Assembly (NCBI GenBank): GCA_041663665.1
Contig: JBAYMG010000003.1
Location: 3,991-67,990, forward strand
Source: Candidatus Omnitrophota bacterium
GTDB lineage: Bacteria > Omnitrophota > Gorgyraeia > Gygaellales > Profunditerraquicolaceae
Reading direction: 5' to 3'
DNA: 64,000 bases
Shown here in pieces: positions 1,806 through 26,562 of this stretch (the first letter of the stretch is position 1; the number at the start of each line of letters is the position of its first letter). A program made the translations under genes and the position numbers. The notes beneath the pieces were generated by a model. That model did no database searches. It was not told where the DNA came from and saw nothing but the letters and a program-made list of their open reading frames with translations.

Positions 1806-1816
1806 AGGGGGAAGAT

Positions 1817-5098: not shown

Positions 5099-5099
5099 T

Positions 5100-5561
5100 A
5101 TGAAAAAAAAGATACTTGCACATAAACGGCCCAGTTGGGATGAATATTTTCTAGAGATGGCCTCTTTGGTGGCTAAACGGTCTACTTGTCTGCGCCGCAG
5201 GGTTGGAGCTGTTTTGGTAAGAGATAAAAGGATTTTAGCTACTGGTTATAATGGCGCACCCAGCGGTTTAAAACATTGTATTGAAATCGGCTGTTTGCGC
5301 CAGAAGTTGAAAGTTCCCTCTGGAGAGCGCCATGAATTATGCCGTGCACTGCACGCTGAACAGAACGCGTTGATTCAGGCATCTTTGCATGGTATAAGCG
5401 TCAAGGCAGCTATATTATATACTACCACCCAGCCTTGTGTTATTTGTGCCAAGATGCTGATTAATGCCGGGATAAAAGAGATTGTTATGACTCAAGGTTA
5501 TCCGGATAAAATGGCTATGGATTTTCTAAAGCAGGCAAAAATTAAAATAAGAAAAATATGA
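5100..5561 (+). CDS. dCMP deaminase (ComEB-type cytidine/deoxycytidylate deaminase)
   Basis: HAEQNAL zinc motif and PCVICAKML; 153 aa; dCMP deaminase family. Confidence 0.8.
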
Positions 5562-6028
5562 GATGTCCGTTTTGCGGGTATAAAGAAGATAAAGTCGTGG
5601 ATTCCCGTGCTACCGCTGAGGAGTCGGCAGTCCGGCGCAGAAGGGAATGTTTAAAATGCGGTAAGCGTTTTACTACTTATGAATATGTTGAAGAGAATTC
5701 ATTGCTGGTAATTAAGAAAGATGGCCGGCGCGAAGCATTTGACCGGAAGAAGATTCTGGCCGGTATAATCCGGGCTTGTGAAAAAAGGCCGGTGAGTGTT
5801 GAGAAGATGGATGATGTGGTTATTCAGGTTGAGCGTTTGATTGCTAAAAAAAGCGACCGTGAAGTTTCCTCGAGTAAAATAGGCGAGTTGGTTATGGAGA
5901 AGCTTAAGTCTATTGATGATGTTGCTTATGTGCGTTTTGCTTCGGTCTACCGGCAGTTTAAAGATGTCGGCCAATTTATGGTCGAATTAAAGGATATTTT
6001 GGGTAAGGATAAAAAGAAAAAGGGTTAA
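5558..6028 (+). CDS. nrdR: transcriptional repressor NrdR
   Basis: [22 protein letters not shown]...[20 protein letters not shown] zinc ribbon followed by an ATP-cone; start overlaps the upstream stop. Confidence 0.93.
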
Positions 6029-6029
6029 T

Positions 6030-6443
6030 ATGATTGAGATGGAGCTGAATAAAATTGTTATTGATGAGAAAAGGCATGACCAGCTGATTGTTTTAAAAGA
6101 AAAAGGGGGCAGCCGGGTTTTACCGATAGTTATCGGTTTAAATGAAGCCTCAGCGATTAAATTAAAAATCAGCGGTTTTAACCCGCCTCGGCCCTTGACT
6201 CACGATTTAATTTTTACCATGCTTAATAATCTTAATGCAACTATTGATAAGGTGCTCATTGATAAACTGGAAGAGAATACATTTCATGCTAAGATTATTA
6301 TTAAGGCCTCAGACGGCCAGTTTAAGACTGTTGACGCCCGGCCAAGCGATAGCATTGCTTTGGCAGTGAGGTTTCATGCACCAATATTTGTTGAAGAAGG
6401 AATTATTAATCAGTATGAGATTTTTAATAAAGATAAGCTTTAG
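6030..6443 (+). CDS. bifunctional nuclease (BFN/DUF151) domain protein
   Basis: LIVLKEKGGSRVLPIVIGLNEASAIKLKISGFNPPRPLTHDLIFTML, the typical BFN fold sequence; 137 aa. Confidence 0.7.
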   Translation: MIEMELNKIVIDEKRHDQLIVLKEKGGSRVLPIVIGLNEASAIKLKISGFNPPRPLTHDLIFTMLNNLNATIDKVLIDKLEENTFHAKIIIKASDGQFKTVDARPSDSIALAVRFHAPIFVEEGIINQYEIFNKDKL

Positions 6444-6469
6444 CTTAAATCCTTAGCCCTACACATTTA

Positions 6470-7960
6470 ATGCTTGTTCGTTGCACTCACAAATATTTCA
6501 CTAAATCAAAACTTATGATGCTTAAATTCAGCGAAAAAGAAAAAGATATTTTAAAGCCGGTTTATAACTTTGCTTTAGCTAAAAAAGTAAAGTTATTTCT
6601 TGTCGGGGGGGCTTTGCGTGATTTAATCCTTAAAAGAACGAAAGTAAATCCGGATTTTGATTTTTGTTTAAAAAAAGGAGCATTAACGTTTGGCCGCCGG
6701 CTCGCCCAGGAGATAAGAGCGGCTTTTGTAGTGTTGGATGAAGAGCATGCTGCTTGCCGCCTGGTTAAGAAAATTGACGGCCAAGTTTATACATTTGATC
6801 TATCGGATTTTCGTGCGGAAACTTTAGAAAGAGACCTGTTGCACCGGGATTTTACGATAAATTCTTTAGCTTTAGAGTTAAAGCATGTTTTTACAGGGCA
6901 AGACTTAGAGGAGTTAATTATTGACCCGAATTCCGGAAGAGGTGACATAAAGCGTAAAGTAATAAAAGTTACCAGCAAAGATTCTTTTAGCGAGGATCCT
7001 TTGAGAATCCTGCGGGCTTTCAGTTTAAGTTGTATTTTAAAATTTAATTTAGACAGAGAAACATTAGCTTTATCCAAAAAAGAAAGAAATAAGATTAGCG
7101 GTGTTTCAGCTGAACGTGTTCGCGAAGAGTTATTTAAAATCCTGGATAGCGGTTCAGCTTATGATTCTTTAGTAATTCTGGATAGACTTAAGATCCTGGA
7201 GATTATTTTTCCAGAAATTAAACCCATGCGCAAGATCGGGCAGGGGCCGCATCATCACCTGGATGTTTGGCAGCACACTTTGGAAACATTGAATCAGTTT
7301 GAGCTGATATTGAAATCGGTTAAGCGCGAAGAGATAAACAGTTATCTTAATGAAGAGGTTTCCGGGCTACGTAAAAGATCAAGCCTTTTAAAATTAGCTT
7401 GCATCTTGCACGATGTGGGGAAGCCTAAAGCATTACGCAGAGAAAAAGGGAAGATTATTTTTCACGGCCATGAGCGTGTGGGTTTGGGCTTAACCCGCGT
7501 TATTTGCCGCAGATTAAAATTATCCAATGAGGAATGCCGCTGTTTAGAGAGAATTGTGCTTTGGCATTTAAGGCCGGGATATTTGGCTTCAAGCAAGCGT
7601 CCTACCCAACGGGCGATCTTTCGTTATTTCCGGGACACAGGCAGCGATGCGTTAGCTGTGCTTTTGTTGTCTTTAGCTGATCAGCGTGCAACCAAAGGCC
7701 CTTTGGCTACGGCTCTTTCACGCGTCTGCCATGAGCGGACAGTTAAAGCGTTAATTAATAAATTATTAAAGAAAAACAGCGAAATTAAGCCAATGCGTTT
7801 TTTAAACGGCAATGATCTTATGAATAAATTTAAATTAGCAGCTTCGCCTTTGATTGGCAAGGTGCTTAGCCGATTAGAGGAGTCACAGGCTATCGGTATG
7901 ATTAAAAATAAAAAAGAAGCTTTAAGCCTGGCGGCAAAAATAATTAAACAACAGAAATGA
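6470..7960 (+). CDS. cca: CCA tRNA nucleotidyltransferase (PolyA_pol head + HD domain)
   Basis: LFLVGGALRDLILKR head domain and HD motif HHHLDVWQHTLE...LHDVGKP. The true start may be an internal ATG at 6515/6518, since there is no SD at 6470. Confidence 0.85.
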   Translation: MLVRCTHKYFTKSKLMMLKFSEKEKDILKPVYNFALAKKVKLFLVGGALRDLILKRTKVNPDFDFCLKKGALTFGRRLAQEIRAAFVVLDEEHAACRLVKKIDGQVYTFDLSDFRAETLERDLLHRDFTINSLALELKHVFTGQDLEELIIDPNSGRGDIKRKVIKVTSKDSFSEDPLRILRAFSLSCILKFNLDRETLALSKKERNKISGVSAERVREELFKILDSGSAYDSLVILDRLKILEIIFPEIKPMRKIGQGPHHHLDVWQHTLETLNQFELILKSVKREEINSYLNEEVSGLRKRSSLLKLACILHDVGKPKALRREKGKIIFHGHERVGLGLTRVICRRLKLSNEECRCLERIVLWHLRPGYLASSKRPTQRAIFRYFRDTGSDALAVLLLSLADQRATKGPLATALSRVCHERTVKALINKLLKKNSEIKPMRFLNGNDLMNKFKLAASPLIGKVLSRLEESQAIGMIKNKKEALSLAAKIIKQQK

Positions 7961-10389
7961 AAAAGTTTATTATAATCGGAATAATCCTATTTATAATTTC
8001 TTTAGGGGCTATTGCCTATTTAAATAAAGTAATCCTTCCTCAAAAAATCAAATCCCTGATTATATCTACGTTAAAAAAGCAGACCGGTAAAGATGTTACT
8101 ATAAAATCTCTGGAGTTTAGTTTATTCAAAGGTTTAGTCTTGCGTGATTTGGTTGTTACTGATAATCAAAATGTAATTTTAAGTACGCGTCAGGCGGACT
8201 GTAGCATCTTTATCTGGCCGATTTTTAAAAAACAGATTATTATTCCGAGTATTGCTCTGAGAAGCCCGTATATTTTCCTCGAGCGCAGGCAGGATCAAAG
8301 TTTTAACCTGCAGGACCTTTTTACCCCTGCTATTCCGGCTAAACCGGCGGATTTCAGTATTACTGTTTTTAAGGTAAGCGTAGTGAATGGTAATGTTGTT
8401 TTTCAGGATGATACGTTGGCAGTAAAATTTAAGAAAGAATTAAAAAATATTCAATTTAGTTTGCATTTGGGCCTACCGGTTAATATCAAATTTAATTTTA
8501 AAGGTGAAATTTCGAATAATCCTTCGGTTTTTATTGATGCTACCGGTGAATACAAAATCTTGAACCGGGAATTAGTTAGTAAAGTAACGGTTAAGAATTT
8601 ATCAATGGGAGAGTTTGCTGTTTATTACAATAATTTAAGCGGCTCAGTCTCAGGGTTGGTTAATTTAGATGCGCAGATTAATTTCAAGGGCCAAATGTTG
8701 CAGGCCTATGTTAATGCTAAAGCGGACAGCCTGGTTTTGGCAAAAGATAAATTAAAAGCTAAAATAAACTTAAATATTCAAACAAAAATTAATTATGACC
8801 TTGGAAGTAAAGTGTTTAGTTTTGATGGTTTATGCGATATTTTGCAGGCTGATATTTCGGGGATAGACTTTGTGGATGGTATTAAAAATTTGCGCGGCAA
8901 GTTTACTTTTAATCAGGATTCTTTAGTTGCGGAAAATTTAAAAGCAGAATTATTAGGTAAGCAGTTTGAAATTAAGCTAGGGGTCAAAGATTTTAATACC
9001 CCGGTGTTAAGCATCGATACAGATTTAGATTTAAATTATTTACCCAGTATCCTTAAGGATAGGTTTAAATTTACGATGATCGATTCAGCCAGCGGTAAGT
9101 CAACGCTATCAATCAAAGCATATCCGGGCAAGAATGGTGACTGGGCGCTCCGCGGGGATATGAATATTAAGGCAGCTAGTTTAAAGCTGGAGAAGCAAAA
9201 TGTCCCGGTAGAAAATATTTCGTTGAAATTAGCATTCAGCCAGGATGGCCTCAATTGGGAGAATGCTAAATTTAAATACCAGGGGATCGATTTTGAGAGT
9301 AGCGGTACTTTAGTTAATTTTGTTTCACCGGGCATTAAGTTAAAACTTTATTCCGCAGATTTATCCCTAGTTTCAGAGTTTGATTGTTCAGGTAAGAAGC
9401 TAAAACTTAGCCAGCTTAAAGGTAAATATCTTGATTCGCAATTTTTAATCAGCGGAGATATAGATAATACTAATCCTGAAAAACTACAGGTAGATTTAAA
9501 TGGTCAGGTTAATCTGGTGCTGGGAGATTTAAACCGGATATTGGCTAAACAGTATCCGGCAATAAAAACCATGAAGTTAGCCGGGCAGGTGGACATAAAA
9601 TTTAATTTGAATGGTGCTCCGGTTGATTTTAAAAACTGTTACCTGCGGGCGAAACTTACGAGCAATAATTTTTCTGGGTATGGCTTGCATGCGCAAAATT
9701 TGAATTTCGATTTTTTCCAGGATCAAAAAATAGTTAAGATTTCTGCCTTTCGTATTGGTTTTTATGATGGGTTAATTGAAGGTAGCGCTGAGTTAAATTT
9801 GGATGATCTTAATCCTGCGTATCAACTGGAGTTAAAGGCTGTGGGAATAAAAATTGAAAAATTAAAGCTGGATACCCCGTCAAAAGATAAAAATATTTCA
9901 GGTACGCTGCTTGGTGAATTAAAGCTCAATGGTTTTTTAAATGATTTAAATAAGTTAAACGGAGGGGGAAGTTTTTCGATCAGTGAAGGTAAACTTTGGG
10001 AGTTGAATTTACTTCAAGGAATAGGAAACATTTTGTTTACTAAGGATTTGGGGAGCATTACATTCTCCGATTGCAGCTCTGATTTTAAGATCAAAGATAA
10101 ATTTGTCTACATGGATAATCTAAAATTGAAAAGTGAAATCGCCAATATTTCCGGGTCTTTAAAAATTGGTTTTGATAGTTCTTTGGATGGGGCTCTAAAT
10201 GTTGAGATTATAAGTGCCATGATTCCGGTAACCGGAACCTTTAAGGATGTCAGTACCGCTATCCTGGGTAATGGCGGAGTATTCGGGGTTATTAAATTAG
10301 GCGGCACCCTTAGTCAGCCGAAGCATAGCTTTAAGCCGGCAGTAAGTAATATTATCCGGGGCTTGACGGATGTAATTTTTGGTAAATAA
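7957..10389 (+). CDS. AsmA-family outer-membrane biogenesis protein
   Basis: N-terminal TM anchor MKKFIIIGIILFIISLGAIAYL followed by ~780 aa of beta-rich repeats typical of the AsmA/TamB-like family; ATGA overlap with cca. Confidence 0.65.
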   Translation: MKKFIIIGIILFIISLGAIAYLNKVILPQKIKSLIISTLKKQTGKDVTIKSLEFSLFKGLVLRDLVVTDNQNVILSTRQADCSIFIWPIFKKQIIIPSIALRSPYIFLERRQDQSFNLQDLFTPAIPAKPADFSITVFKVSVVNGNVVFQDDTLAVKFKKELKNIQFSLHLGLPVNIKFNFKGEISNNPSVFIDATGEYKILNRELVSKVTVKNLSMGEFAVYYNNLSGSVSGLVNLDAQINFKGQMLQAYVNAKADSLVLAKDKLKAKINLNIQTKINYDLGSKVFSFDGLCDILQADISGIDFVDGIKNLRGKFTFNQDSLVAENLKAELLGKQFEIKLGVKDFNTPVLSIDTDLDLNYLPSILKDRFKFTMIDSASGKSTLSIKAYPGKNGDWALRGDMNIKAASLKLEKQNVPVENISLKLAFSQDGLNWENAKFKYQGIDFESSGTLVNFVSPGIKLKLYSADLSLVSEFDCSGKKLKLSQLKGKYLDSQFLISGDIDNTNPEKLQVDLNGQVNLVLGDLNRILAKQYPAIKTMKLAGQVDIKFNLNGAPVDFKNCYLRAKLTSNNFSGYGLHAQNLNFDFFQDQKIVKISAFRIGFYDGLIEGSAELNLDDLNPAYQLELKAVGIKIEKLKLDTPSKDKNISGTLLGELKLNGFLNDLNKLNGGGSFSISEGKLWELNLLQGIGNILFTKDLGSITFSDCSSDFKIKDKFVYMDNLKLKSEIANISGSLKIGFDSSLDGALNVEIISAMIPVTGTFKDVSTAILGNGGVFGVIKLGGTLSQPKHSFKPAVSNIIRGLTDVIFGK

Positions 10390-10416
10390 CACTTTGCTTT
10401 AATATATTGTGCTTTT

Positions 10417-11805
10417 ATGGCAAGGAGAGATATGTCGAATAATAAAATTTTTCTAGAAAAAAAAGATATCCCTAAACAATGGTATAACTTAGCTGCTGAT
10501 TTATCCGGGCCAAGGCATCCGCCTTTAGCTGCTGATGGTTCTACTCTTAAGGCTGGAATGCTAGAAAAGGTGTTTCCTGCTAATATTATTGAGCAGGAGG
10601 TTTCTACTGCCCGTTGGATTAATATCCCTGAAGAGATCCTGGAGATTCTAACTTTGTGGAGGCCTGCTCCGTTACGTAGGGCTTTAAGGTTAGAGAGATA
10701 TTTAAAAACTCCGGCGCGTATTTATTATAAAGATGAAAGCGTAAGCCCGGCAGGAAGCCATAAACCAAATACTGCTGTAGCTCAAGCCTGGTACAATAAG
10801 GAGTTCGGAATTAAGCGATTGACTACCGAAACCGGGGCAGGGCAGTGGGGTTCTGCTCTTGCTTTTGCTTGTAATTTAATTGGGCTTAAATGCAAGGTTT
10901 ATATGGTGCGCATTAGTTTTGATCAAAAGCCAATGCGTAAAACTATGATGCAGGTCTGGGGTGCAGAATGTGTTGCTAGTCCCAGTTCGACTACACGCTC
11001 TGGCAGAGAAATATTAAAGAAGATGCCGCATACACCTGGTAGCTTAGGTATGGCAATTAGTGAAGCAGTGGAGGATGCCCTTTCTGATAAGAGCGGTAAA
11101 TCCCGTTATTCTTTAGGCAGTGTTTTAAATCATGTTTTATTGCACCAGACAATTATTGGCTTAGAGGCAAAAAAACAGCTAAAAATAGCTGGTGAGAAAA
11201 AACCGGATATAGTTATTGGTTGTGTTGGCGGCGGGAGCAATTTTGCCGGTATTGCCTTTCCTTTTATTAGTGATAAAATTTGCGGCCAAAATATAGAAAT
11301 TATTCCTGTTGAGCCAACGGCTTGCCCGACTTTAACTAAGGGTCCATTTACTTATGATTTTGGCGATGTTGCCGGGCTTACTCCATTATTGGCTATGCAT
11401 ACATTGGGGCATAGATTTGTTCCAGAGCCGATTCATGCCGGAGGATTGCGCTACCACGGTATGGCGCCTTTAGTAAGCCAAGCAGCAGTCGAAGGTTTGA
11501 TTACACCGCGTGCTTATGATCAGATTAAATGTTATCAGGCAGCTTTCCTTTGGGCCAGAACTGAAGGAACAATTTGTGCCCCTGAAACAAGCCATGCGAT
11601 TGCTTGTGCTATTGATGAAGCCAGGAAAGCTAAAAAAGAAGGTAAACAAAAAGTGATTTTATTTTGCTATAGCGGGCATGGGCTGATGGATTTAGCCGGA
11701 TATGATAAATTTTTATCCGGTAAGTTAACCAGGTATGCGCTTCCAAGAAATAAATTACACAACTCTTTGAAGTCGATCAGAGGTTTGCCTAAAATAGAAT
11801 GTTAA
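10417..11805 (+). CDS. TrpB-like PLP-dependent enzyme (tryptophan synthase beta chain 2 family, TrpB2)
   Basis: 462 aa; conserved TrpB2-family regions (e.g. [40 protein letters not shown]), the TrpB2 N-terminal extension, and no trpA nearby. Confidence 0.85.
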
Positions 11806-12551
11806 GAATCGATTTAAATAACAATTTTTTTCGAAAATTGATTTATTTTAAAAAATATCTGTTTATTTTATCAGCTTTACCTTTGTTAATTTTATTTAAT
11901 CTTTTGCTCTGGGCGAATGCCGACGTCCTTCATTTAAAAAATGGCCGTAGCATTGAAGGGCTGATTAAGAAAGAGACCGCGGATAATGTTGAGTTAGAGA
12001 TAAGTTTTGGTTCTATGAAATTTTCTAAAGATCAGATAGAGAACATTGAAAGATCTTCACCTGTCCAGGTGGAATTGATCCGGCAGGAATGGAGTGAAGA
12101 AAAAGCCAAAGTGCAGGAAAGGGCTAAAGCGGTAGAAGAAGAAAGGGAGCATGCGCCAAAACAGGTAAGCGTGGATAAGAAAAGCGGGCATGTGATTGTG
12201 GTAACTACGTTAAATAAGGAAGTAAAAGCCAATCTTGTTTTAGATACCGGTGCTTCTTTGATGATGTTGTCAAATAAAGTAGCGGTTAGTTTGGGCTCAA
12301 GTATTAACTCTAGCAGCGGGAAGGTTATTGATTTAATAATGGCCGACGGCCGCAGAGTAGAAGCTAAAATGGTAATTTTAGATAGTGTAAGCGTGCAGGA
12401 TTCTGAGGTGCAAAATGTCGAGGCTGCGGTTTTGTCAGCAGAAGACAGTGATGCTGTTGTCGGTGACGGCCTGCTGGGTATGTCTTTTTTGAAACACTTT
12501 AATTTTAAAATTGACCAGAAGTATGGTAAGTTAATTTTGGAGAAGCTGTAA
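11799..12551 (+). CDS. membrane-anchored retropepsin-like (clan AA) aspartic protease
   Basis: N-terminal TM helix, a coiled-coil linker, and the retroviral-type protease signature [20 protein letters not shown]; overlaps the TrpB2 stop by 7 nt. Confidence 0.7.
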
Positions 12552-12968
12552 ATGAAATCTCACACCGAATATCTCTATTTTAATACCACTCAAAGGCAGG
12601 AGTTTGTTAATATAACTAGCCAGGTGGAGAAGGCTCTGGCTAAAAGCGCAATCCAAGAGGGTTTGTGTTTAGTTAATCCTATGCATATTACCGCCAGCGT
12701 TTTTATCAATGATGATGAAACTGGTTTGCATCAGGATTTCTCTCTTTGGCTTGAAAAACTAGCTCCGTTTAGTAAAGATAGATATCAGCATAATTCTACC
12801 GGCGAAGATAACGCGGACGCGCATTTGAAGCGTACGATCATGGGTAGGGAAGTAGTAGTGGCAGTAACCGGAGGAAAGTTAGATTTCGGCCCATGGGAGC
12901 AGATTTTTTACGCTGAGTTTGATGGCCAACGCAAGAAACGGGTGCTGATTAAAATAATCGGGGAATAA
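12552..12968 (+). CDS. YjbQ/UPF0047 family protein (secondary thiamine-phosphate synthase-like)
   Basis: 138 aa; typical YjbQ length and fold sequence ([21 protein letters not shown]). Confidence 0.8.
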
Positions 12969-12970
12969 TT

Positions 12971-13906
12971 ATGAAAATAAAAAATACCGAAATTAAAGTG
13001 ATGCTGGGTGATATTACTGAGCAAGAAGTAGATGCTGTTGTTAATGCGGCTAATAATAAATTATTGATGGGTGGAGGTGTAGCTGGGGCGATTAAGAAAA
13101 AAGGCGGCCAGATTATTGAAGATGAAGCAATAAAAGATGGGCCTATTGAAATTGGGCAAGCGATTGCAACTGGTGCAGGTAAACTCAAAGCAAAATATGT
13201 GATCCATGCTGCAACTATGGGTATGGATTTTAAGACTGATGAAATTAAAATTCGTAATGCTTGCCGGAGCTCGTTGGATTTAGCCGGGAAATTAAAAATT
13301 AGTTCAATTATCTTTCCGGCTTTAGGTTGCGGTACCGGAGGATTTCCTTTGTTAGCTTCAGCTAAGATTATGGCTCAAGAGCTTTTAAAAGACTTGCGTC
13401 AGGAAAAGTCAGGGTTAAAAGAGGTAACCTTCTGTTTGAATAATCAGGAAGCAGTTGCTGTTTTTAACAAAGGTGTATTAGGCTATTTAGAGTATGTAAC
13501 CACAAAATTATCCGGCGGTCCGTATGTTACAGTGGATGCAATTATTGAATTATCGGAAGGAATCGTGATTATCGAGCGTAGTAATCCGCCTTTTGGCTGG
13601 GCACTGCCTGGAGGATTTGTAGATTATGGAGAAAGCTTGGAGGAAGCAGTAATTAGAGAGACAAAAGAAGAAACTAATTTGGATTTAACTGAAATTAAAC
13701 AGTTTCATACTTATTCTAACCCGCAGCGTGACTTGCGATTTCACACAATCGGAACTGTATTTATTGCCAAAGCTAAGGGTATTCCTAAGGCTGGTGATGA
13801 TGCAAAGGGCCTAAAAATTGTTAAATTAAGTGAGATAGAGAAGCTGCAACTTGCCTTTGATCATAAGAAAATTCTTCAGGATTACCTTCAGGCAAAACAG
13901 GCTTAA
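12971..13906 (+). CDS. Macro domain (ADP-ribose/O-acetyl-ADP-ribose binding) fused to a NUDIX hydrolase (ADP-ribose pyrophosphatase-like)
   Basis: N-terminus [29 protein letters not shown]...HAAT (macro domain). C-terminus Nudix box [24 protein letters not shown]. Confidence 0.8.
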
Positions 13907-15807
13907 CCTTCGCGTAATTGTTTTTCGGCGTCAACAATATCGCGGTTAATTACGCGGATGGTTTCTTTGATTTTATCTTTAAGTAAATAGGAAGCAACCG
14001 GGGCACCGGAGATTTCCCTTAAAACTTGCACGCTCATCCGAAAATACCGGACTACTTCACCTTCATCGCAATCCGTCAGTAATAATGTTTTATCAAAACT
14101 TGTCCCGCGTAGCCAGGCTTCCATAGCAGAACAGAGATGAAAATAGGGAAGCTTGCTAAAAGGATAAATTTTATAGCGTCTTTCCTTATCTTTTATCTGG
14201 TCATAGGTTTCTTCGCATGTTTTTTTAAGCCAGCGGCTGGATTTGGATATGCTTGATGGCATGCGTTGATTTTTGCGGGGGTCGAAGACAACAGAGGCCG
14301 CTACTACGCCTAATCCGAATTCATCTTGTTGTTCAAGGATGTTCTGTTCGTATAATTCCGAGAGGACTAATTCATAGCCATAAACAGTTTTAGCAAATTT
14401 TCCTTTGTTGGTAAGTTTTCCGTCAGAGATATAGTTTAAGTCTTTGAGTAGTTTAAGTTTTGCATCCAAGAGATTTAATGCATGTTTCTGTTCGTTTTTA
14501 CGTGATTGGTAATAATGTAAAGAAAGAGGATAAATTTTAAATAAATCCTCCTGATATTTTTCATAAAGATTAAGAATAGTGGCATAAGAAGTATTTAATT
14601 GGCTTTTTACTTCCTCAGGCTTGCCATAAATTATTCTGCGTACATCATCAAAGGTCATTCTTTGTGAGTTAACTCGCGTATAGACAAACCCTTCTTTGTC
14701 AATACCGCGCCTTCCGGCCCTGCCGGCCATTTGGAAAAAATCGCGGGTTTTTAAATTACGGACATAGGTACCGTAAAATTTACGCAGGCCGTCAAACATA
14801 ACCGAGCGGCTGGGCATATTGATCCCCAGGGCAAATGTTTCGGTGGTAAAAATTACTTTAAGCAAGCGGCTGGTAAAAAGCCGTTCGATTACTTCTTTTA
14901 ATGTGGGCAGCATCCCGGCGTGGTGATAGGCAATACCGCGTTGAATGAGGGGGTAAAGCATTTGGGCTGATTGTTCATTTTTTAAGTTAAATCTTTCCAG
15001 CAGATCTTCATACATCTGGGTAATTGCCCGGCTTTCTTTAGCGTCTAAGAATCTAAATCCATATAATTCCTGAGCAAGCTCTTCAGCGCGTTTACGGCTA
15101 AAAACAAAATAAATTGCTGGAAGCCCGTCATTATTACGCAAATAATCAATTAGCGAGCTTAATCTGTTAGGTTTATTTGAGCGGATGCGTTTAAGGTGCT
15201 CGATTTTATCGACGATTTCATTTTGGCACTGGAAAAGGAAATGCAAGGGGACCGGGCGGTTGTCTTCAATAACTACTTGGACGCTCTTATTATGGATTGA
15301 TTCGATCCAGGCGGCAAACTGCTTGATATTCGGGATCGTCGCTGACAGTCCAAGCAGCTTCATGTGTTTAGGGAGGAAAATCAGTGATTCTTCCCAGACT
15401 GTCCCGCGTTCAGGATTATCAATGTAATGAATTTCGTCAAAAATAACCCAGGTGTATTTATCCAGGCTTTGCGGTTCATCCAATATTTTATTACGTAGAA
15501 TTTCGGTAGTCATGATTAAAACCGGGGCTTGTGGGTTAATTGAAACATCACCGGTTAGGATGCCGATATTATCTTGAAATTGTCCTTGGAAGTCGCGGAA
15601 TTTTTGATTGGAGAGGGCTTTGATCGGTGCAGTATAGATAACTCCTAAATTATTAATAATCGCGTTGCTAATAATATATTCGGCAATAGCGGTTTTTCCA
15701 GCTCCGGTTGGCGCTGAAACAATTACTGAGTGCCCATTGTTTATATGGTCAATGGCTTCCTGCTGGAATCGATCGTAAATCATGAATCCATTATAATCTA
15801 AAATCAT
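13903..15807 (-). CDS. Ski2/HelY-like DEAD/DEAH-box superfamily-2 RNA helicase with a DSHCT-like C-terminal domain
   Basis: Q-motif FQQEAI, motif [10 protein letters not shown], motif II FDEIHY, SAT motif GLSAT. This is the only minus-strand CDS in the window. Start is uncertain (ATG at 15807, 15786 or 15843; track TTG at 15993 would overlap the divergent gene by 150 nt). Confidence 0.8.
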
Positions 15808-15841
15808 TGATTTATCTATGTAAAAATAATATAATGCATCC

Positions 15842-16393
15842 ATGGGGTATGAGGTTGCGCTTAATAAAGCTTGGGATAATTTGGCTAACCAGAAGGCGCC
15901 CAATAATTTATCAGTAAAATTTATGGGCGATGAGTATAGTATAGACATTGTTCTAAAGCGTATCCTTTCTCTATCTTGTAACACTCCGGTCAAGGATTTT
16001 CCGGCTATCTTAATTTTGCATTATTTGCTGCAGAAATTAAAGGGGATGCCTGCAATAACTGGCCTCTGGCTTACTTTCAGGGAGTTTTCCGGGATTGAAG
16101 GTTATTATGACGCTTATCATAAGCGTTCAATTGAGCCGTTAATCCGTAAATATGGCAAGCATCCGGATGCCATTAAAGATGTTTTAAACCGGTTACCGGG
16201 CAGGCTTGCCAGCGGCGGAGATGTAGGTATTATTATTGAGGTTTTTGAGGATATTCCGGTATTGATCAAACTTTGGGAGCAGGATACGGAATTTGGCCCG
16301 GATGCCAATATGTATTTTGACGCAAGCATAAAAGACATTTTTTGTATTGAGGATATTATAGTTTTAGCTCAACTGGTTAGCAGTCAGCTTTAG
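15842..16393 (+). CDS. hypothetical protein, DUF3786-like
   Basis: 183 aa, no catalytic motif recognised. N-terminus YEVALNKAWDNL and the SLSCNTPVKDFPAILILHYL segment resemble the DUF3786 family as I recall it. An internal start at 15923 is possible. Confidence 0.45.
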   Translation: MGYEVALNKAWDNLANQKAPNNLSVKFMGDEYSIDIVLKRILSLSCNTPVKDFPAILILHYLLQKLKGMPAITGLWLTFREFSGIEGYYDAYHKRSIEPLIRKYGKHPDAIKDVLNRLPGRLASGGDVGIIIEVFEDIPVLIKLWEQDTEFGPDANMYFDASIKDIFCIEDIIVLAQLVSSQL

Positions 16394-16424
16394 TGTTTTT
16401 TAGTATTTATGCAGGGAGAGAAAA

Positions 16425-16985
16425 ATGAATAAAGTTATTATATTGTTGTTTATCGGGTTATTGGGCTTGACCGGCTATCTGTTTTGTGATGACCTTGATT
16501 CTCGGTTTCATTCTCAAGAAGAAGTTAAGCTCCAGATACCCTTTGGCAGAAATATCGATTACAATAATATTCTAGTATCCAGGGCTGTTGACGGAGATAC
16601 TCTGGTTTTAGAGAATAATGAACGGGTGCGTTTAATTGGTATTGATACTCCGGAAATGCATGAATCGAATAAGCTTAATCGCGACGCACAGCGTTCCGGG
16701 CAAGATGTTGAAGCAATAAAACAGATGGGCAGGCAAGCTTATGAGTTCACTAAAAAACTTGTCGAGGGCAAACGGGTACGTTTAGAGTTTGATGTTGACA
16801 GGCATGATAAGTATAAAAGAACTTTAGCTTATGTCTATCTGGAGGATGGGACTTTTTTAAATGCTAAAATTGTGGAAGAAGGTTATGCTTCGCTGATGAC
16901 CTATCCGCCAAATGTAAAATATGCAGATTTATTTTTAAAATTATATCAACAGGCTCGTCAAAATCAGCGCGGGCTTTGGAAATAA
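16425..16985 (+). CDS. secreted thermonuclease (staphylococcal nuclease, SNase-like)
   Basis: Signal peptide MNKVIILLFIGLLGLTGYLF, then the SNase core AVDGDTLVL...RVRLIGIDTPE...RTLAYVYLEDGTFLNAKIVEEGYA. Confidence 0.85.
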   Translation: MNKVIILLFIGLLGLTGYLFCDDLDSRFHSQEEVKLQIPFGRNIDYNNILVSRAVDGDTLVLENNERVRLIGIDTPEMHESNKLNRDAQRSGQDVEAIKQMGRQAYEFTKKLVEGKRVRLEFDVDRHDKYKRTLAYVYLEDGTFLNAKIVEEGYASLMTYPPNVKYADLFLKLYQQARQNQRGLWK

Positions 16986-17040
16986 TATTGGAGAGGTTAT
17001 GTTTTGTTCTGCTCCTTGGGATTTTTCTAAATAAAACATT

Positions 17041-18093
17041 ATGGAGGATATTATGTTAAGGTGTTTAACTGCAGGTGAATCGCACGGTAAAGGATTATTT
17101 GCTATTTTAGAAGGGTTTCCGGCCGGGCTTAAAGTTAATGCGGCAGATATTAATCAAGAATTAAAACGCAGGCAATCCGGGTTTGGCCGGGGCAAGCGCA
17201 TGCAGATAGAGCATGACCAGGTTGAGATTGTCTCCGGTTTAAAAAATAATCAAACTTTGGGCAGCCCGGTTACTTTGCTAATTAAAAATAAAGATGCCAG
17301 CATCGAGAAATTACATAAGGTTTTAGCTGCCCGCCCGGGCCATGCCGATTTAGCTGGGTTATTAAAATATGGTTTTACGGATATCCGGGAAGTTTTAGAA
17401 CGTGCTTCAGCGCGCAGCACAGCGGCTACTGTAGCAGTCGGTGCTTTATGCAAAATCTTCTTAAAAGAATTTGGGATTATTGTGGCCAGTAAAGTTTTGT
17501 CGGTTGGCGGTGAATCTGAAGAAGCGGCAATCGAGGAGAAAATAACCGAAGCAATTAACAATAAGGATACGGTGGGTGGGGTCTTTGAGGTAGCTATCAA
17601 GAATGTCCCGGTAGGTTTGGGTAGTTATGTTCAACCAGACCGCAGGCTAGATAGCCGCTTAGCTCAAGCAATTATTGCTATTCCGGGAATTAAATCTTTT
17701 GAGGTCGGTTTGGGCTTAGGCTATGCAGTTAGTTTTGGTTCTGAGGTGCACGATGCGATTTATCATGATAATAAAAAAGGATATTTTCGCCGGAGTAACA
17801 ATTCCGGAGGTATTGAAGGGGGTATTTCTAACGGCGAGGTTATTGTTTTGCGTGCTTGTATGAAGCCGATTGCTACTTTGATGAACCCGCTGGATTCAGT
17901 AAATATTAATACCAAAAAAATTGCTAAGGCTGCGGTTGAACGTTCGGATATTTGTGTTGTTGAATCGGCCGGGGTTGTAGCTGAATCAGCGGCGGCTTTT
18001 GTTTTAACGGAAGCTTTCCTTGAAAAATTCGGCGCTGACTGTTTAAGCGATATAAAAGAAAGTTATAAGAATTATTTAAAAAGAATTAGTTAG
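17041..18093 (+). CDS. aroC: chorismate synthase
   Basis: MLRCLTAGESHGKGLFAILEGFPAGL...RPGHAD; 350 aa. Confidence 0.95.
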   Translation: MEDIMLRCLTAGESHGKGLFAILEGFPAGLKVNAADINQELKRRQSGFGRGKRMQIEHDQVEIVSGLKNNQTLGSPVTLLIKNKDASIEKLHKVLAARPGHADLAGLLKYGFTDIREVLERASARSTAATVAVGALCKIFLKEFGIIVASKVLSVGGESEEAAIEEKITEAINNKDTVGGVFEVAIKNVPVGLGSYVQPDRRLDSRLAQAIIAIPGIKSFEVGLGLGYAVSFGSEVHDAIYHDNKKGYFRRSNNSGGIEGGISNGEVIVLRACMKPIATLMNPLDSVNINTKKIAKAAVERSDICVVESAGVVAESAAAFVLTEAFLEKFGADCLSDIKESYKNYLKRIS

Positions 18094-18142
18094 ATTCTAT
18101 CGCCTCGTTCGTCTATTGTCGGTAAGAAGGAGGTGATAGGAT

Positions 18143-18400
18143 ATGAAAGAAAACGAAATTAGTGTCAGCCGTATCTATAAGTTAGAGACTGATTCTAAAC
18201 TTAAGGCTTTTGCGGATGTTGCATTTTCGGGGATTGTAATCAAAGGCTTTAGTGTGGTTAACGGCGAAAAAGGATTGTTTGTGAGCATGCCTCGCCATCA
18301 AGGTAAAGACGGTAAGTGGTATGATACAGTTTACCCGGAAACCAAGGAGTTAAAGCAGCAATTAAGCGCAATTGTTCTGGAAGCGTATCAGGCTAGTTAA
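18143..18400 (+). CDS. spoVG: septation protein SpoVG
   Basis: 85 aa: KAFADVAFSGIVIKGFSVVNGEKGLFVSMPRHQGKDGKWYDTVYPETKELKQQLSAIVLEAY matches SpoVG along its full length. Strong SD AAGGAGGTGA. Confidence 0.9.
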   Translation: MKENEISVSRIYKLETDSKLKAFADVAFSGIVIKGFSVVNGEKGLFVSMPRHQGKDGKWYDTVYPETKELKQQLSAIVLEAYQAS

Positions 18401-18406
18401 AAAATC

Positions 18407-18460
18407 GGGGACGCTCCTATTTATTTTTTCTGTTTCTTAAGAATAAATAGGAGCGTCCCC
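18407..18460 (+). terminator. 19-bp perfect inverted repeat (GGGGACGCTCCTATTTATT / AATAAATAGGAGCGTCCCC) with a 16-nt T-rich loop; possible terminator, attenuator or RNA-stability hairpin after spoVG
   Basis: Read directly from the sequence. No canonical U-tract follows on the + strand, so the terminator call is tentative. Confidence 0.4.
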
Positions 18461-18485
18461 AGATTAAATGAAGGATTGATATAAA

Positions 18486-18989
18486 ATGAATATTTATTTA
18501 GTTGGATTTATGGGCACTGGAAAAACTTCAGTTGGCCGTTTATTGGCTAGTAAAAAAGGTTGGAATTTTGTCGATTTGGATGAATTGATTGAATTAAAAG
18601 AACAGCGCAGGATTGTGGATATTTTCGCTCAGGATGGCGAGCCGTATTTTCGTAAAATCGAAAAAAAGTTTTTAAAACAGGTTTCTACACAAGAGAGATT
18701 TGTGGTTGCTTGCGGGGGAGGGGTTGTTTTAGATAAAGACAATATTAAGGTGATGAAAAAAACCGGAACCTTAATTTGTTTAAGTGCCGAAAGTAAGGTA
18801 ATTTTAAAAAGAGTTTTAATCAGTTCTCATCGGCCGCTTTTAAATGTCGCTAAGCCTAAGGAGCGCATTGAGCTTTTGCTTAAATTGCGCCAGCCTTACT
18901 ATTTGCAAGCTGACAGTATAATTGATACTTCGTGTTTGTCAATCAAGCAGGTGGTAGGAAAGATCCTAAAAATAGCTAAAACTAGATGA
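18486..18989 (+). CDS. aroK: shikimate kinase
   Basis: MNIYLVGFMGTGKTSVGRLLA (P-loop); 167 aa. Confidence 0.9.
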   Translation: MNIYLVGFMGTGKTSVGRLLASKKGWNFVDLDELIELKEQRRIVDIFAQDGEPYFRKIEKKFLKQVSTQERFVVACGGGVVLDKDNIKVMKKTGTLICLSAESKVILKRVLISSHRPLLNVAKPKERIELLLKLRQPYYLQADSIIDTSCLSIKQVVGKILKIAKTR

Positions 18990-20071
18990 ATACGCTGGAA
19001 GCATTAGTGAGCTTAAATCTTATTCCGCAGATTGGCAGCGTACGCCTTGAGAATTTACTTAAATATTTTCTGAAGCCGGAAGCTGTGTTTACCGCTAGTC
19101 GAAAGGATTTATCTTCAGTAGTCGGTGAGCAAATAGGGGAAAGTATTGCTACTTTTGATGTAAAGCGGTTAGAAAGGGATTTAGCACTAGCTAAAAAATT
19201 AGGGCTAAAAATTATCACTCTTTTTGACCAAGAGTATCCGCAAGTCCTTAAAGAGATACCCGGTCCTCCGATTGTGCTTTATGTTTTAGGTAATATAGCT
19301 TGTGAAGATAATCTGGCGATTGGTATTGTGGGCTCTCGGCGCGCTTCACTCTATGGCTTAAGTTGTGCTGAGAAGTTTGCTGCTGAGTTAGGTGCTCAGG
19401 GAGTTACCATAGTTTCAGGGATGGCTCGGGGTGTGGATACTTATGCTCACCGGGGTGCTCTAAAAGTAAAAGGCCGTACGATTGCGGTAATCGGAAGCGG
19501 CTTCAATCATATTTATCCTCCGGAAAATGAAAGTTTAGCTAAAGAGATTTCTTCCTCCGGTGCGGTTATTTCGGAATTTCCTATGGAAACAGTGCCTTTA
19601 CCGATGAATTTCCCCCGTCGCAATCGTTTAATCAGCGGATTAAGTTTAGGTGTTTTAATTACGGAAGCAGCTAGGAATAGCGGGGCATTGATTACTGCTG
19701 ATTTTGCTTTAGAGCAAGGCCGGGAAGTTTTTGCTTTGCCGGGAAGGATTGATTTCAACGGCTCAACCGGAACCAATGCTTTGCTTAAGCAAGGCGCAAA
19801 GATGGTTACTTGTTGCAATGATATTCTCGAGGAATTAAATTTAGCTACGACTCAAGCAAAAGAGCCTGTGGATACAATCAAGAAGCAGGAGATTGCTTGC
19901 GGTAAAGATGAGGGCCTGCTTTATGAACATATAAGTAATCAGGCAGTGAGTATTGATGCTCTGGTTGAGAAAACAGCTTTGCCGAGCAGCCAAATATTGA
20001 ATTTGATTTTAAAGCTGCGCTTTAAAAAATTAATTAAAGAATTACCGGGTAAACAATTCATGAGGAATTAA
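18986..20071 (+). CDS. dprA: DNA-processing protein DprA (Smf)
   Basis: IVGSRRASLYG...GMARGVDTYAHRGAL Rossmann-like DprA core; dprA-topA synteny. Confidence 0.9.
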   Translation: MNTLEALVSLNLIPQIGSVRLENLLKYFLKPEAVFTASRKDLSSVVGEQIGESIATFDVKRLERDLALAKKLGLKIITLFDQEYPQVLKEIPGPPIVLYVLGNIACEDNLAIGIVGSRRASLYGLSCAEKFAAELGAQGVTIVSGMARGVDTYAHRGALKVKGRTIAVIGSGFNHIYPPENESLAKEISSSGAVISEFPMETVPLPMNFPRRNRLISGLSLGVLITEAARNSGALITADFALEQGREVFALPGRIDFNGSTGTNALLKQGAKMVTCCNDILEELNLATTQAKEPVDTIKKQEIACGKDEGLLYEHISNQAVSIDALVEKTALPSSQILNLILKLRFKKLIKELPGKQFMRN

Positions 20072-22066: not shown

Positions 22067-22068
22067 TC

Positions 22069-22938: not shown

Positions 22939-22946
22939 AACAAAAA

Positions 22947-24218: not shown

Positions 24219-24223
24219 GGAGC

Positions 24224-24700: not shown

Positions 24701-24709
24701 GCTTAAAAA

Positions 24710-24877: not shown

Positions 24878-24911
24878 ACAGGTTGGTTGTTCTATTAATC
24901 GATAAAGCCAG

Positions 24912-25765: not shown

Positions 25766-25769
25766 CAAG

Positions 25770-25783: not shown

Positions 25784-25792
25784 GATCCTAAT

Positions 25793-26515: not shown

Positions 26516-26562
26516 AATTTCATATCTTGTTGTAACTCTTCAGTTTTTATTCTTTAAAACAG

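What the first reader, a model, noticed from the sequence alone, without database searches (positions are those of the whole stretch)
12971..13906. Macro domain fused to a NUDIX hydrolase in a single polypeptide
The N-terminal macro domain ([21 protein letters not shown]) would bind or remove ADP-ribose or O-acetyl-ADP-ribose. The C-terminal Nudix box (GX5EX7REVXEEXN-like [23 protein letters not shown]) would cleave ADP-ribose to AMP + ribose-5-P. A covalent fusion suggests channeling of ADP-ribose released from a modified protein or NAD-derived signal, as in detoxification or signal termination in ADP-ribosylation or defence-signalling pathways.
Basis: partly seen in the sequence, partly recalled or inferred. 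Interest (0 to 1): 0.55.

Follow-up and report, generated by a model that had tools for sequence, protein, structure and literature searches.

The report
Macro–Nudix fusion enzyme of Omnitrophota
This is a real single gene joining an ADP-ribose-binding macro domain to an ADP-ribose-splitting Nudix domain; it is a conserved housekeeping gene across the uncultured phylum Omnitrophota, is already machine-annotated in databases, and shows no link to phage defence.

Summary
ORF 12971..13906 (+) encodes a 311-aa protein with a Macro domain (residues 24-134, E=2.4e-30) and a NUDIX domain (186-304, E=4.9e-20). The identical protein is in NCBI as a Candidatus Omnitrophota 'macro domain-containing protein'.

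The fusion family is confined to Omnitrophota-type MAGs. It sits at the end of a conserved housekeeping gene string that ends NrdR, BFN nuclease, CCA-adding enzyme. It is absent from the phage, plasmid and IMG/VR collections.

The Nudix domain belongs to the NadM/NrtR clade of ADP-ribose pyrophosphatases. Its Nudix box is invariant in 78 of 78 species-level relatives, so ADPR to AMP + ribose-5-P is the best-supported step.

The macro domain keeps all ADP-ribose-binding motifs (D14, N25/N28, GGGV, G-rich loop 2). It has Ala at the MacroD catalytic Asp, as in active Af1521 and viral Mac1. It has Gly at the essential Tyr/Phe position. Hydrolase or binder therefore stays open.

The macro ligand-binding half has decayed or been deleted in 21 of 78 relatives, in several separate branches of a rough NJ tree. 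The Nudix domain never has.

Verdict: a plausible two-step ADP-ribose clean-up enzyme and a modest variant of known kinds. Channelling is untested and the defence reading is unsupported.

The parts
12971..13906 (+). Complete macro-Nudix fusion gene (311 codons plus stop)
   Evidence: Single ORF. Identical to NCBI Omnitrophota protein P0001. AF2 mean pLDDT 89.1, pTM 0.77.
12971..13240 (+). Macro domain, N-terminal ligand-binding half (residues 1-90): D14 (adenine contact), N25/N28 (NAAN), G34-G36-V37-A38 (phosphate loop 1)
   Evidence: Pfam Macro. Aligns to YmdB N25/D35. It is the most conserved segment among the 55 intact relatives: mean major-residue frequency 0.78, 19/90 positions invariant. 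It is degenerate or deleted in 21/78 relatives.
13241..13405 (+). Macro domain, C-terminal half (residues 91-145): loop 2 A117-L-G-C120-G-T-G123-G-F-P126, then helix with K132, Q136, E137
   Evidence: G123 occupies the YmdB Tyr126 position. K132/Q136/E137 are kept even in relatives that lost the N-terminal half.
13406..13519 (+). End of the macro fold plus a long linker helix (residues about 146-183; helix 159-179 containing the conserved G-Y172-L-x-Y/H)
   Evidence: AF2 secondary structure. Y172 is invariant in A2 and at least 90% conserved in A1.
13520..13903 (+). Nudix hydrolase domain (residues 184-311): Nudix box G215-x5-E221-x7-R229-E230-T-K-E233-E234-T-N-L, plus RDxRFHT, AGDDA and AFDH motifs shared with NadM/NrtR-type ADPR-binding Nudix proteins
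   Evidence: Pfam NUDIX. PDB 2yyh E=2.8e-33; EF2700/2fml 1.9e-15; Francisella NadM 2qjt 8e-12; Synechocystis NadM 2qjo 2.7e-10. NCBIfam NadM-Nudix models E down to 9e-16. Box residues invariant in 78/78.
12552..12968 (+). Upstream co-oriented gene: YjbQ/UPF0047 family. Its stop is 2 nt before the fusion's ATG, so it is probably co-transcribed.
   Evidence: Pfam UPF0047 E=1.3e-37. TIGR00149 above cut-off. Adjacent in 26 loci of the window's clade.
6470..7960 (+). CCA-adding-enzyme-like nucleotidyltransferase with HD domain. It is the immediate upstream neighbour of the fusion in about 35 more distant Omnitrophota genomes.
   Evidence: Pfam PolyA_pol + PolyA_pol_RNAbd + HD + tRNA_NucTran2_2. NCBIfam CCA tRNA nucleotidyltransferase models, all below cut-off. 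Synteny.
13903..15993 (-). Convergent Ski2/Hel308-like DEAD-box helicase with DSHCT domain. Its stop overlaps the fusion's stop by 4 nt.
   Evidence: Conserved downstream neighbour in 29 loci.

Best explanation
A chromosomal housekeeping enzyme of Omnitrophota that clears ADP-ribose and its derivatives in two steps.

Step 1 (inferred, uncertain): the macro domain binds an ADP-ribose derivative. Candidates are O-acetyl-ADPR from sirtuins, ADPR-1''-phosphate, or ADPR esterified to a protein or nucleic-acid end. It releases free ADP-ribose by the substrate-assisted mechanism used by macro domains that lack the catalytic Asp, such as Af1521 and viral Mac1.

Step 2 (best supported): the NadM/NrtR-type Nudix domain cleaves the pyrophosphate bond of ADP-ribose with Mg2+/Mn2+. 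This gives AMP and ribose-5-phosphate, removing a reactive glycating metabolite and returning its parts to central metabolism.

Shown: both folds are present, the ligand-binding and metal-binding motifs are intact, and they are under strong purifying selection. Inferred: the substrates, whether the macro domain is catalytic, and any hand-over between the two sites.
For: - Domains and motifs.
- The Nudix domain's closest characterised relatives are the ADPR pyrophosphatase domain of NadM and the ADPR-sensing NrtR proteins. In that family an intact Nudix signature correlates with ADPRase activity (PMC2330246).
- Relatives of this Nudix domain at about 45-61% identity are fused elsewhere to NMN adenylyltransferase-like and quinolinate phosphoribosyltransferase (NAD biosynthesis) domains. 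Phage hits to the Nudix part include several annotated as NadM-type NMN adenylyltransferases.
- The Nudix box is invariant in 78/78 species-level relatives.
- In the 55 relatives with an intact macro domain, the ligand-binding half of the macro is the most conserved part of the protein. D14, N25, N28, G34, G36, V37, A38, G119-G121 and G123 are invariant in 52 homologs.
- The nearest eukaryotic relative by sequence and fold is PARP14 macrodomain 1, an active ADP-ribosyl hydrolase (PMC10499325).
- Housekeeping context: conserved synteny with purE, sua5, rpiB, glyA, nrdR and the CCA-enzyme gene. No full-length copy on mobile elements or viral contigs.
Against: - The macro domain lacks two of the three residues of the classical MacroD mechanism: Asp to Ala38 and Tyr to Gly123. 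Y126A abolishes YmdB activity (PMC5413906).
- Its loop 2 (G-x-G-x-G-G-F-P) looks, from my memory of the macroH2A1.1 sequence, more like a non-catalytic binder.
- The closest solved homologs of both halves (TTHA0132/2dx6 and Aquifex 2yyh) have no determined function (PMC5413906; PMC5389931 lists 2YYH as undetermined).
- All NCBIfam hits are far below the curated cut-offs.
- No sirtuin, ADP-ribosyltransferase or Tpt1 gene lies in the 64-kb window, so no source of substrate is identified.
- The macro half has been lost or eroded in 21/78 relatives, so step 1 is dispensable in many lineages.
- Standalone relatives of the macro domain are not next to Nudix or NAD genes.
Confidence: 0.5

Rival explanations
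1. The macro domain is a non-catalytic ADP-ribose reader. It binds free ADPR or an ADPR derivative and acts as an allosteric or targeting module for the Nudix ADPR pyrophosphatase. For example, it could switch the hydrolase on when ADPR rises, or bring it to ADP-ribosylated macromolecules, which the Nudix domain would convert to phosphoribosyl adducts.
For: - Gly123 replaces the aromatic residue essential in YmdB, and Ala38 replaces the Asp (PMC5413906).
- The top NCBIfam models are named 'ADP-ribose-binding protein'.
- macroH2A1.1, a binder, ranks among the top fold matches.
- Repeated loss of the macro ligand site with full retention of the Nudix domain fits an accessory regulatory module.
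- Nudix enzymes can process protein-linked ADPR (PMC4680915).
Against: - Loop 1 (NAAN...GGGVAGA) has the N-GGV form of the active SARS-CoV-2 Mac1 signature, without the Asp of the MacroD N-GGVD form (PMC8120803). From my memory of the macroH2A sequence, that binder lacks the NAAN motif.
- PARP14 MD1, an active hydrolase, is the closest eukaryotic relative (PMC10499325).
- A macro domain that sequesters ADPR would compete with the Nudix site for the same ligand.
- The NCBIfam names are not experimental, and all hits are below cut-off.
Confidence: 0.28
2. An RNA-end repair or decapping enzyme that works with the neighbouring CCA-adding enzyme. The macro domain removes ADP-ribose from 5'/3'-phosphorylated RNA ends, or dephosphorylates the ADPR-1''-phosphate produced by 2'-phosphotransferase-type RNA repair. 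The Nudix domain destroys the released ADPR, or removes NAD/ADPR-type caps.
For: - The CCA-enzyme-like gene (with HD domain) is the immediate upstream neighbour in about 35 deeply divergent Omnitrophota genomes, where the CCA enzyme is only 41-59% identical to the window's. It lies in the same co-oriented gene string in the window.
- Other neighbours act on nucleic acids: a BFN nuclease-domain protein, a Ski2-like DSHCT helicase, and an SNase.
- MacroD-type domains and PARP14 MD1 remove ADPR from RNA and DNA ends (PMC8120803, PMC10499325).
- Af1521-type macro domains have ADPR-1''-phosphatase activity (PMC5413906).
Against: - The conserved block is a long mixed housekeeping string (purE, sua5, rpiB, glyA, dCMP deaminase, nrdR), so adjacency may be inherited gene order rather than shared function.
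- In the window's own clade four unrelated genes separate the CCA enzyme from the fusion.
- No Tpt1/KptA, RNA ligase or 2H phosphoesterase was seen in the window.
- The Nudix domain is closest to ADPRases. NudC and RppH-type models score at least 9 orders of magnitude worse.
Confidence: 0.12
3. A defence or counter-defence component that degrades ADPR-derived immune signals such as cADPR isomers or gcADPR.
For: - Macro and Nudix domains are used this way by phages and by some defence systems (PMC9503650, PMC11204291).
- There are weak PADLOC hits to the DarG macro (40 bits) and to a candidate Nudix family, PDC-S07 (37 bits).
Against: - The position in a housekeeping gene string is stable across the phylum.
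- The composition profile of 9-18 kb shows no obvious break at the gene (GC 0.36-0.45).
- No neighbouring TIR, SIR2, ThsA/B, DarT or other defence genes.
- No phage, plasmid or IMG/VR sequence encodes the fusion.
- The protein evolves slowly (64-83% identity across thousands of clusters), unlike typical conflict genes.
Confidence: 0.03

Closest known systems
TTHA0132 (Thermus thermophilus, PDB 2dx6) / Af1521-type macro domains within the MacroD-like class
   Same: Best sequence and fold match for residues 7-140 (E=1.1e-32; TM-score 0.94 normalised to the target, rmsd 1.6 Å). It has the same NAAN...G(G/A)GVAGAI loop with Ala in place of the MacroD catalytic Asp, and the same Gly-rich loop 2 without an aromatic residue (alignment; PMC5413906).
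   Different: TTHA0132 is a standalone 159-aa protein with no reported activity. The window protein carries a C-terminal Nudix domain and an invariant Cys120 in loop 2, where TTHA0132 has Thr.
MacroD-type hydrolases (E. coli YmdB, human MacroD1/2, O. iheyensis MacroD)
   Same: Same fold, 34% identity to YmdB over 170 residues. The adenine-contact Asp, the NAAN Asn and the Gly-rich phosphate loops are conserved.
   Different: It lacks the Asp (Ala38), the assisting His (Lys42) and the distal-ribose Tyr (Gly123) of the N-GGVD-GVYG signature (PMC8120803).
NadM bifunctional NMN adenylyltransferase / ADP-ribose pyrophosphatase (Synechocystis slr0787, Francisella NadM) and NrtR regulators
   Same: The Nudix domain is of the same clade ('ADP-ribose (2)' in PMC5389931). 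It shares the TVD, WALPGGF, RDxR, AGDDA and AFDH motifs. Like NadM, it is a fusion that couples an NAD/ADPR-related module to an ADPRase.
   Different: The partner domain is a macro domain at the N-terminus, not an adenylyltransferase or a winged-helix DNA-binding domain. Unlike many NrtRs, the Nudix box is fully intact.
Aquifex aeolicus O67435 (PDB 2yyh, '8-oxo-dGTPase domain')
   Same: Closest solved Nudix homolog, aligned over 114 residues (E=2.8e-33).
   Different: It is a standalone 139-aa protein. Its function is listed as undetermined (PMC5389931), and the deposited name is not evidence of substrate.
Other ADPR-network Nudix fusions (KptA-Nudix of Bodo saltans virus, cREC-Nudix of jumbo phages)
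   Same: The same logic applies: an ADPR-derivative-producing or -processing domain is fused to a Nudix domain that is predicted to finish the degradation (PMC9503650).
   Different: Those are viral conflict or RNA-repair genes. This one is a cellular, phylum-wide, syntenic housekeeping gene with a macro partner.

Membership tests
Macro domain superfamily (Pfam PF01661) | Profile match above the gathering score | tested here: met
   105.3 bits against a cut-off of 22, covering the profile 1-118/118.
Macro domain superfamily (Pfam PF01661) | Three-layer alpha/beta/alpha macro fold | tested here: met
   The AF2 model matches 2dx6 with target-normalised TM 0.94 and rmsd 1.6 Å.
MacroD-type ADP-ribosyl hydrolase / OAADPr deacetylase (YmdB, MacroD1/2) | Asn of the NAAN motif that coordinates the catalytic water (YmdB N25) | tested here: met
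   N28 aligns with YmdB N25 and is invariant in 52 homologs.
MacroD-type ADP-ribosyl hydrolase / OAADPr deacetylase (YmdB, MacroD1/2) | Catalytic Asp in GGGVD (YmdB D35) | tested here: not met
   Ala38 aligns with D35, and the Ala is invariant. The same substitution occurs in Af1521 (active) and TTHA0132 (PMC5413906).
MacroD-type ADP-ribosyl hydrolase / OAADPr deacetylase (YmdB, MacroD1/2) | Aromatic residue of the GV(Y/F)G loop stacking on the distal ribose (YmdB Y126, Mac1 F132) | tested here: not met
   Gly123 aligns with Y126, and G123 is invariant in the intact subfamily.
MacroD-type ADP-ribosyl hydrolase / OAADPr deacetylase (YmdB, MacroD1/2) | Measured hydrolase activity on OAADPr or MARylated substrates | not testable with these tools
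   Needs a biochemical assay.
NCBIfam PRK00431 equivalogs (ADP-ribose-binding protein / O-acetyl-ADP-ribose deacetylase) | Score above the curated equivalog cut-off | tested here: not met
   Best scores are 127 bits against a cut-off of 252 (NF001667) and 116 against 200 (NF001664).
Nudix hydrolase superfamily (Pfam PF00293) | Profile match | tested here: met
   72.4 bits against a cut-off of 21.1.
Nudix hydrolase superfamily (Pfam PF00293) | Intact Nudix box G-x5-E-x7-R-E-U-x-E-E-x-G-U | tested here: met
   The box reads G215..E221..R229 E230 T K E233 E234 T N236 L. The only departure is Asn for the final Gly. The catalytic residues are invariant in 78/78 relatives.
NadM/NrtR-type ADP-ribose pyrophosphatase clade ('ADP-ribose (2)') | Closest characterised relatives belong to this clade | tested here: met
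   PDB: 2fml (EF2700) 1.9e-15, 2qjt 8e-12, 3gz8 2e-10, 2qjo 2.7e-10, with the RDxR, AGDDA and AFDH motifs shared in the alignments. NCBIfam NadM-Nudix 9e-16, against MutT 3e-6 and NudC 2e-6.
NadM/NrtR-type ADP-ribose pyrophosphatase clade ('ADP-ribose (2)') | Score above the curated NCBIfam cut-off for a NadM or NtrR equivalog | tested here: not met
   58 bits against a cut-off of 397 (NF003786). This is expected, because those models cover the whole bifunctional protein.
NadM/NrtR-type ADP-ribose pyrophosphatase clade ('ADP-ribose (2)') | ADPR hydrolysis to AMP + R5P; domain-swapped dimer | not testable with these tools
   Needs an enzyme assay and a structure. The model tool gives no coordinates and no multimer.
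Anti-phage defence systems (PADLOC: DarTG, Thoeris and others) | Match to a system protein together with the partner genes next to it | tested here: not met
   Only 40-bit (DarG macro) and 37-bit (PDC-S07) domain-level hits. No DarT, ThsB, TIR or SIR2 neighbours.

The most novel reading that the evidence does not exclude
The fusion is a near-universal Omnitrophota enzyme whose real substrate is an ADP-ribosylated or NAD/ADPR-capped RNA end. It would work with the ancestrally adjacent CCA-adding/HD enzyme. The Asp-less, aromatic-less, Cys120-bearing macro domain would use a mechanism different from MacroD enzymes. The conserved half-macro plus linker (K132, Q136, E137, Y172) would form part of the Nudix active unit, which would explain why it survives when the macro ligand site is deleted.
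Probability: 0.1. Interest if true: 0.6.

Novelty: new variant of a known kind. Interest (0 to 1): 0.33.

Why it matters
If the two activities are confirmed, this would be a natural one-polypeptide pathway from ADP-ribose conjugates or derivatives to AMP + ribose-5-phosphate. It would be a Rosetta-stone link between TTHA0132-type macro domains, whose activity is still unknown, and ADPR catabolism.

It would also give a first functional handle on NAD/ADPR turnover in Omnitrophota, a phylum of mostly uncultured, small-celled and partly predatory bacteria.

The repeated erosion of the macro ligand site next to an invariant Nudix site is a small natural experiment on which half is essential.

It is not a new kind of system. 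Both domains, their chemistry and the habit of fusing ADPR-network domains to Nudix are well known. Automated pipelines already label the protein as COG-type 'O-acetyl-ADP-ribose deacetylase / ADP-ribose pyrophosphatase'.

Tried and rejected
- **Defence or counter-defence reading: rejected.** PADLOC gave only weak generic hits. No full-length match exists in 50,697 phage records, 72,556 plasmids or IMG/VR. The one longer viral match, L151, is an NMN adenylyltransferase-like + Nudix ORF (NadM-type by sequence reading, no profile scan run); the adjacent ORF looks NadV-like.
- **Guilt by association for the macro half: led nowhere.** The closest standalone relatives (Ignavibacteria/Bacteroidota, 55% identity) sit next to unrelated genes: a GAF/cNMP histidine kinase, glycosyltransferases, and an RM enzyme.
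- **Literature: nothing found.** Five full-text searches found no description of a macro-Nudix fusion or of this Omnitrophota protein. This is a negative result for an open-access library only. De Souza & Aravind 2012 (recalled from memory) may list such architectures but was not retrievable.
- **Channelling geometry: could not be assessed.** The AF2 tool returns confidence and secondary structure but no coordinates or PAE. The afdb50 fold library was unavailable.
- **Linker Tyr172 as the partner-subunit Tyr of NrtR/NadM dimers: not shown.** HMMER alignments do not extend upstream of GPxxTVD.
- **Promoter and terminator scans: uninformative.** 37 promoter-like sites against 28±6 expected, and 13 terminator-like sites against 10±3.
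- **Cluster look-up of divergent fusion representatives: almost no taxon names**.
- **Antisense ORF 12949..13188 (79 aa):** taken as a chance ORF inside the gene; no test was run on it.
Full report
**1. The observation**

Pfam finds Macro (residues 24-134, E=2.4e-30) and NUDIX (186-304, E=4.9e-20), both far above their gathering scores.

The identical protein is deposited as 'MAG: macro domain-containing protein [Candidatus Omnitrophota bacterium]'. JGI labels close relatives 'O-acetyl-ADP-ribose deacetylase / ADP-ribose pyrophosphatase YjhB (NUDIX family)'. More than 5,000 90%-identity clusters match at E≤1e-10, and the 120 best at 64-83% identity all carry both domains. The fusion is therefore real and not an assembly or frameshift artefact.

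An AlphaFold2 model built on 52 homologs is confident (mean pLDDT 89, pTM 0.77). It shows a macro fold, a long helix (159-179) and a Nudix fold. No solved structure covers both halves: the query-normalised TM-score is at most 0.51.

**2. Where it lives**

Nearly all are labelled Candidatus Omnitrophota. The rest are coarsely labelled MAGs with the same gene order. GTDB R232 holds about 700 Omnitrophota species (bioRxiv 10.64898/2026.06.07.730766), so the family looks close to core for the phylum. That is an inference, because only the best 80 loci were inspected.

I clustered the ORFs of all loci and named them with Pfam. This shows an ancestral co-oriented string: PurE, Sua5/TsaC-LMW phosphatase, RpiB, GlyA, (dCMP deaminase), NrdR, BFN nuclease-domain protein, CCA-adding-enzyme-like nucleotidyltransferase with HD domain, then the macro-Nudix gene. 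The last two are directly adjacent in about 35 deeply divergent genomes.

In the window's own clade, an AsmA-like protein, a TrpB-like PLP enzyme, a retropepsin-like protease and YjbQ have been inserted between the CCA enzyme (6470..7960) and the fusion. A Ski2/Hel308-like DSHCT helicase converges on its 3' end.

The rest of the window is LPS/Kdo and Lpt genes, trigger factor, ClpP, SerA/SerC, PurA, isoprenoid genes, ProS and NusA. No sirtuin, ADP-ribosyltransferase, Tpt1 or defence gene is present. No phage, plasmid or IMG/VR sequence encodes the fusion; only single domains or NadM-type Nudix proteins turn up. PADLOC hits are weak and generic. This is a housekeeping context, not a conflict context.

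**3. The Nudix half**

The Nudix box reads G215-x5-E221-x7-R229-E230-T-K-E233-E234-T-N-L. Its catalytic residues are invariant in 78 of 78 species-level relatives.

- The closest solved homolog is Aquifex O67435 (2yyh, E=2.8e-33), whose function is undetermined (PMC5389931).
- The next are EF2700 (an NrtR-family protein), Francisella and Synechocystis NadM, and Shewanella NrtR. They share the TVD, WALPGGF, RDxR, AGDDA and AFDH motifs.
- NCBIfam ranks NadM-Nudix models (E down to 9e-16) far ahead of MutT, NudC or NudI.
- In this clade the Nudix domain binds ADP-ribose, and an intact signature goes with ADPR pyrophosphatase activity (PMC2330246).
- Relatives of this Nudix domain at about 45-61% identity are fused elsewhere to NMN adenylyltransferase-like and quinolinate phosphoribosyltransferase domains. 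They are also fused to IMPase, ROK and AMMECR1 domains.

ADPR to AMP + ribose-5-phosphate is thus the best-supported step, at roughly 0.7 confidence. It is inferred from subfamily membership, not from an equivalog match.

**4. The macro half**

All ADP-ribose-binding elements are present and invariant in 52 homologs: D14 (adenine contact), N25/N28 of NAAN, G34/G36/V37, and the G119-C120-G121-x-G123-G124 loop.

Aligned with E. coli YmdB (sequence taken from the annotated MG1655 genome):

| YmdB residue | Window residue | Status |
|---|---|---|
| N25 | N28 | kept |
| D35 (catalytic) | A38 | lost |
| H39 | K42 | lost |
| Y126 | G123 | lost |

PMC5413906 reports that Af1521 and TTHA0132 naturally carry Ala at the Asp position and that Af1521 is active. 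The same paper reports that Y126A abolishes YmdB activity. SARS-CoV-2 Mac1 has the signature N-GGV-GIFG (PMC8120803), so it also lacks the Asp but keeps the aromatic residue.

The window protein and TTHA0132 (its best PDB match, E=1.1e-32, rmsd 1.6 Å) lack both. PARP14 macrodomain 1, an active hydrolase (PMC10499325), is the closest eukaryotic relative. The binder macroH2A1.1 ranks similarly by fold. Sequence alone therefore cannot decide between hydrolase and reader. I put hydrolase at a little over one half.

**5. Evolution within the family**

Searching 1.84 billion 50%-identity representatives gave only about ten full-length fusion clusters. It also gave about 25 clusters of 250-300-aa relatives that match only from residue about 70-95 onward. 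Alignment shows that their NAAN and GGGV motifs are mutated away or deleted. Helix 'AKIMAQE' (K132, Q136, E137), the linker 'GYLxH' (Y172) and the whole Nudix domain stay conserved.

Among the 78 species-level genes, 55 have an intact macro ligand site, 21 are degenerate and 2 are truncated by contig ends. Degenerate forms occur in both synteny types and in at least five separate branches of a rough neighbour-joining tree, which implies repeated loss.

Where the site is intact, the ligand-binding half of the macro domain is the most conserved part of the protein: major-residue frequency is 0.78, against 0.73 for the Nudix domain. The macro site is therefore functional and selected in the window's lineage, but it is dispensable elsewhere. 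The Nudix activity is the constant. Why the C-terminal half of the macro domain and the linker persist is unexplained.

**6. Mechanism**

The best explanation (0.5) is a two-step ADP-ribose clean-up enzyme. The macro domain releases ADPR from a derivative such as OAADPr, ADPR-1''-phosphate or an ester-linked conjugate. The Nudix domain then splits ADPR into AMP and ribose-5-phosphate.

The rivals are:
- a non-catalytic reader or regulator macro domain attached to the same ADPRase (0.28);
- an RNA-end repair or decapping role linked to the neighbouring CCA enzyme (0.12);
- a defence-signal degrader (0.03).

Channelling between the sites is plausible for any fusion but could not be examined, because no coordinates were returned and no multimer model is available.

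**7. Comparison and novelty**

Both domains, their chemistry and the tendency of ADPR-network domains to fuse with Nudix are known; NadM-Nudix, KptA-Nudix and cREC-Nudix are examples (PMC9503650). Pipelines already annotate this protein with both functions. I found no paper describing a macro-Nudix fusion or this Omnitrophota family, and neither closest solved homolog has a known activity.

I rate it a new variant of a known kind, with interest 0.33. It is a tidy, testable bifunctional candidate with an instructive pattern of domain decay, but it would not surprise a specialist.

Noticed in passing
window 1..64000: Every ORF of at least 100 aa that was assigned a function or treated as a gene lies on the + strand, except the Ski2-like helicase (13903..15993) on the - strand. 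Many adjacent genes overlap or lie a few nt apart. GC skew is positive in every 500-bp window of the 9-18 kb stretch profiled.
   Followed up: partly
window 13903..15993 (-): A Ski2/Hel308-like DEAD-box helicase with a eukaryote/archaea-style DSHCT (NUC185) C-terminal domain. It is conserved as the convergent neighbour of the fusion in 29 loci. It gives 124-bit generic hits to the Hachiman HamB helicase models, but no HamA partner was seen among the neighbouring genes.
   Followed up: partly
window 2296..3357 (+) to 6470..7960 (+): The long housekeeping string Sua5/TsaC-LMW phosphatase fusion, RpiB, GlyA, dCMP deaminase, NrdR, BFN nuclease-domain protein and CCA-like enzyme keeps its order across very divergent Omnitrophota, where the CCA enzyme is only 41-59% identical.
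   Followed up: partly
window 6470..7960 (+): The CCA-adding-enzyme-like protein (PolyA_pol head, RNA-binding domain, HD/HDIG, tRNA_NucTran2_2) scores far below every NCBIfam equivalog cut-off (best 170 bits against 439). Its exact activity (CCA-adding, A-adding or poly(A)) is therefore open.
   Followed up: no
window 47140..48867 (+) and 52165..52545 (+): A 575-aa and a 126-aa predicted protein with no Pfam hit on record, embedded among housekeeping genes (SerA to HMGL-like; OmpA-like to DUF4912).
   Followed up: no
window 36033..36962 (+): A 309-aa protein with only a faint deoxyhypusine-synthase (PF01916) hit, sitting between heptosyltransferase-like genes and a PfkB kinase in the LPS/Kdo cluster.
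   Followed up: no
window 15842..16393 (+) versus 13903..15993 (-): The listed TTG start of the helicase ORF (15993) overlaps the DUF3786 gene start (15842) by about 150 nt. Relatives have 626-629-aa helicases, against 696 aa here. The true helicase start is probably an internal codon and the two genes are divergent.
   Followed up: partly
P0150, P0153, P0157, P0160 and others: After the Omnitrophota family itself, the best-scoring macro-domain relatives include very long (1,000-3,100 aa) proteins with 3-5 tandem macro domains at 29-38% identity. These are presumably PARP14-like eukaryotic proteins.
   Followed up: no
L087 and L088 (Ignavibacteria-type contigs): Standalone TTHA0132-like macro genes sit directly or closely downstream of a cNMP-binding/GAF histidine kinase in two unrelated contigs. 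This may be a conserved pairing.
   Followed up: no
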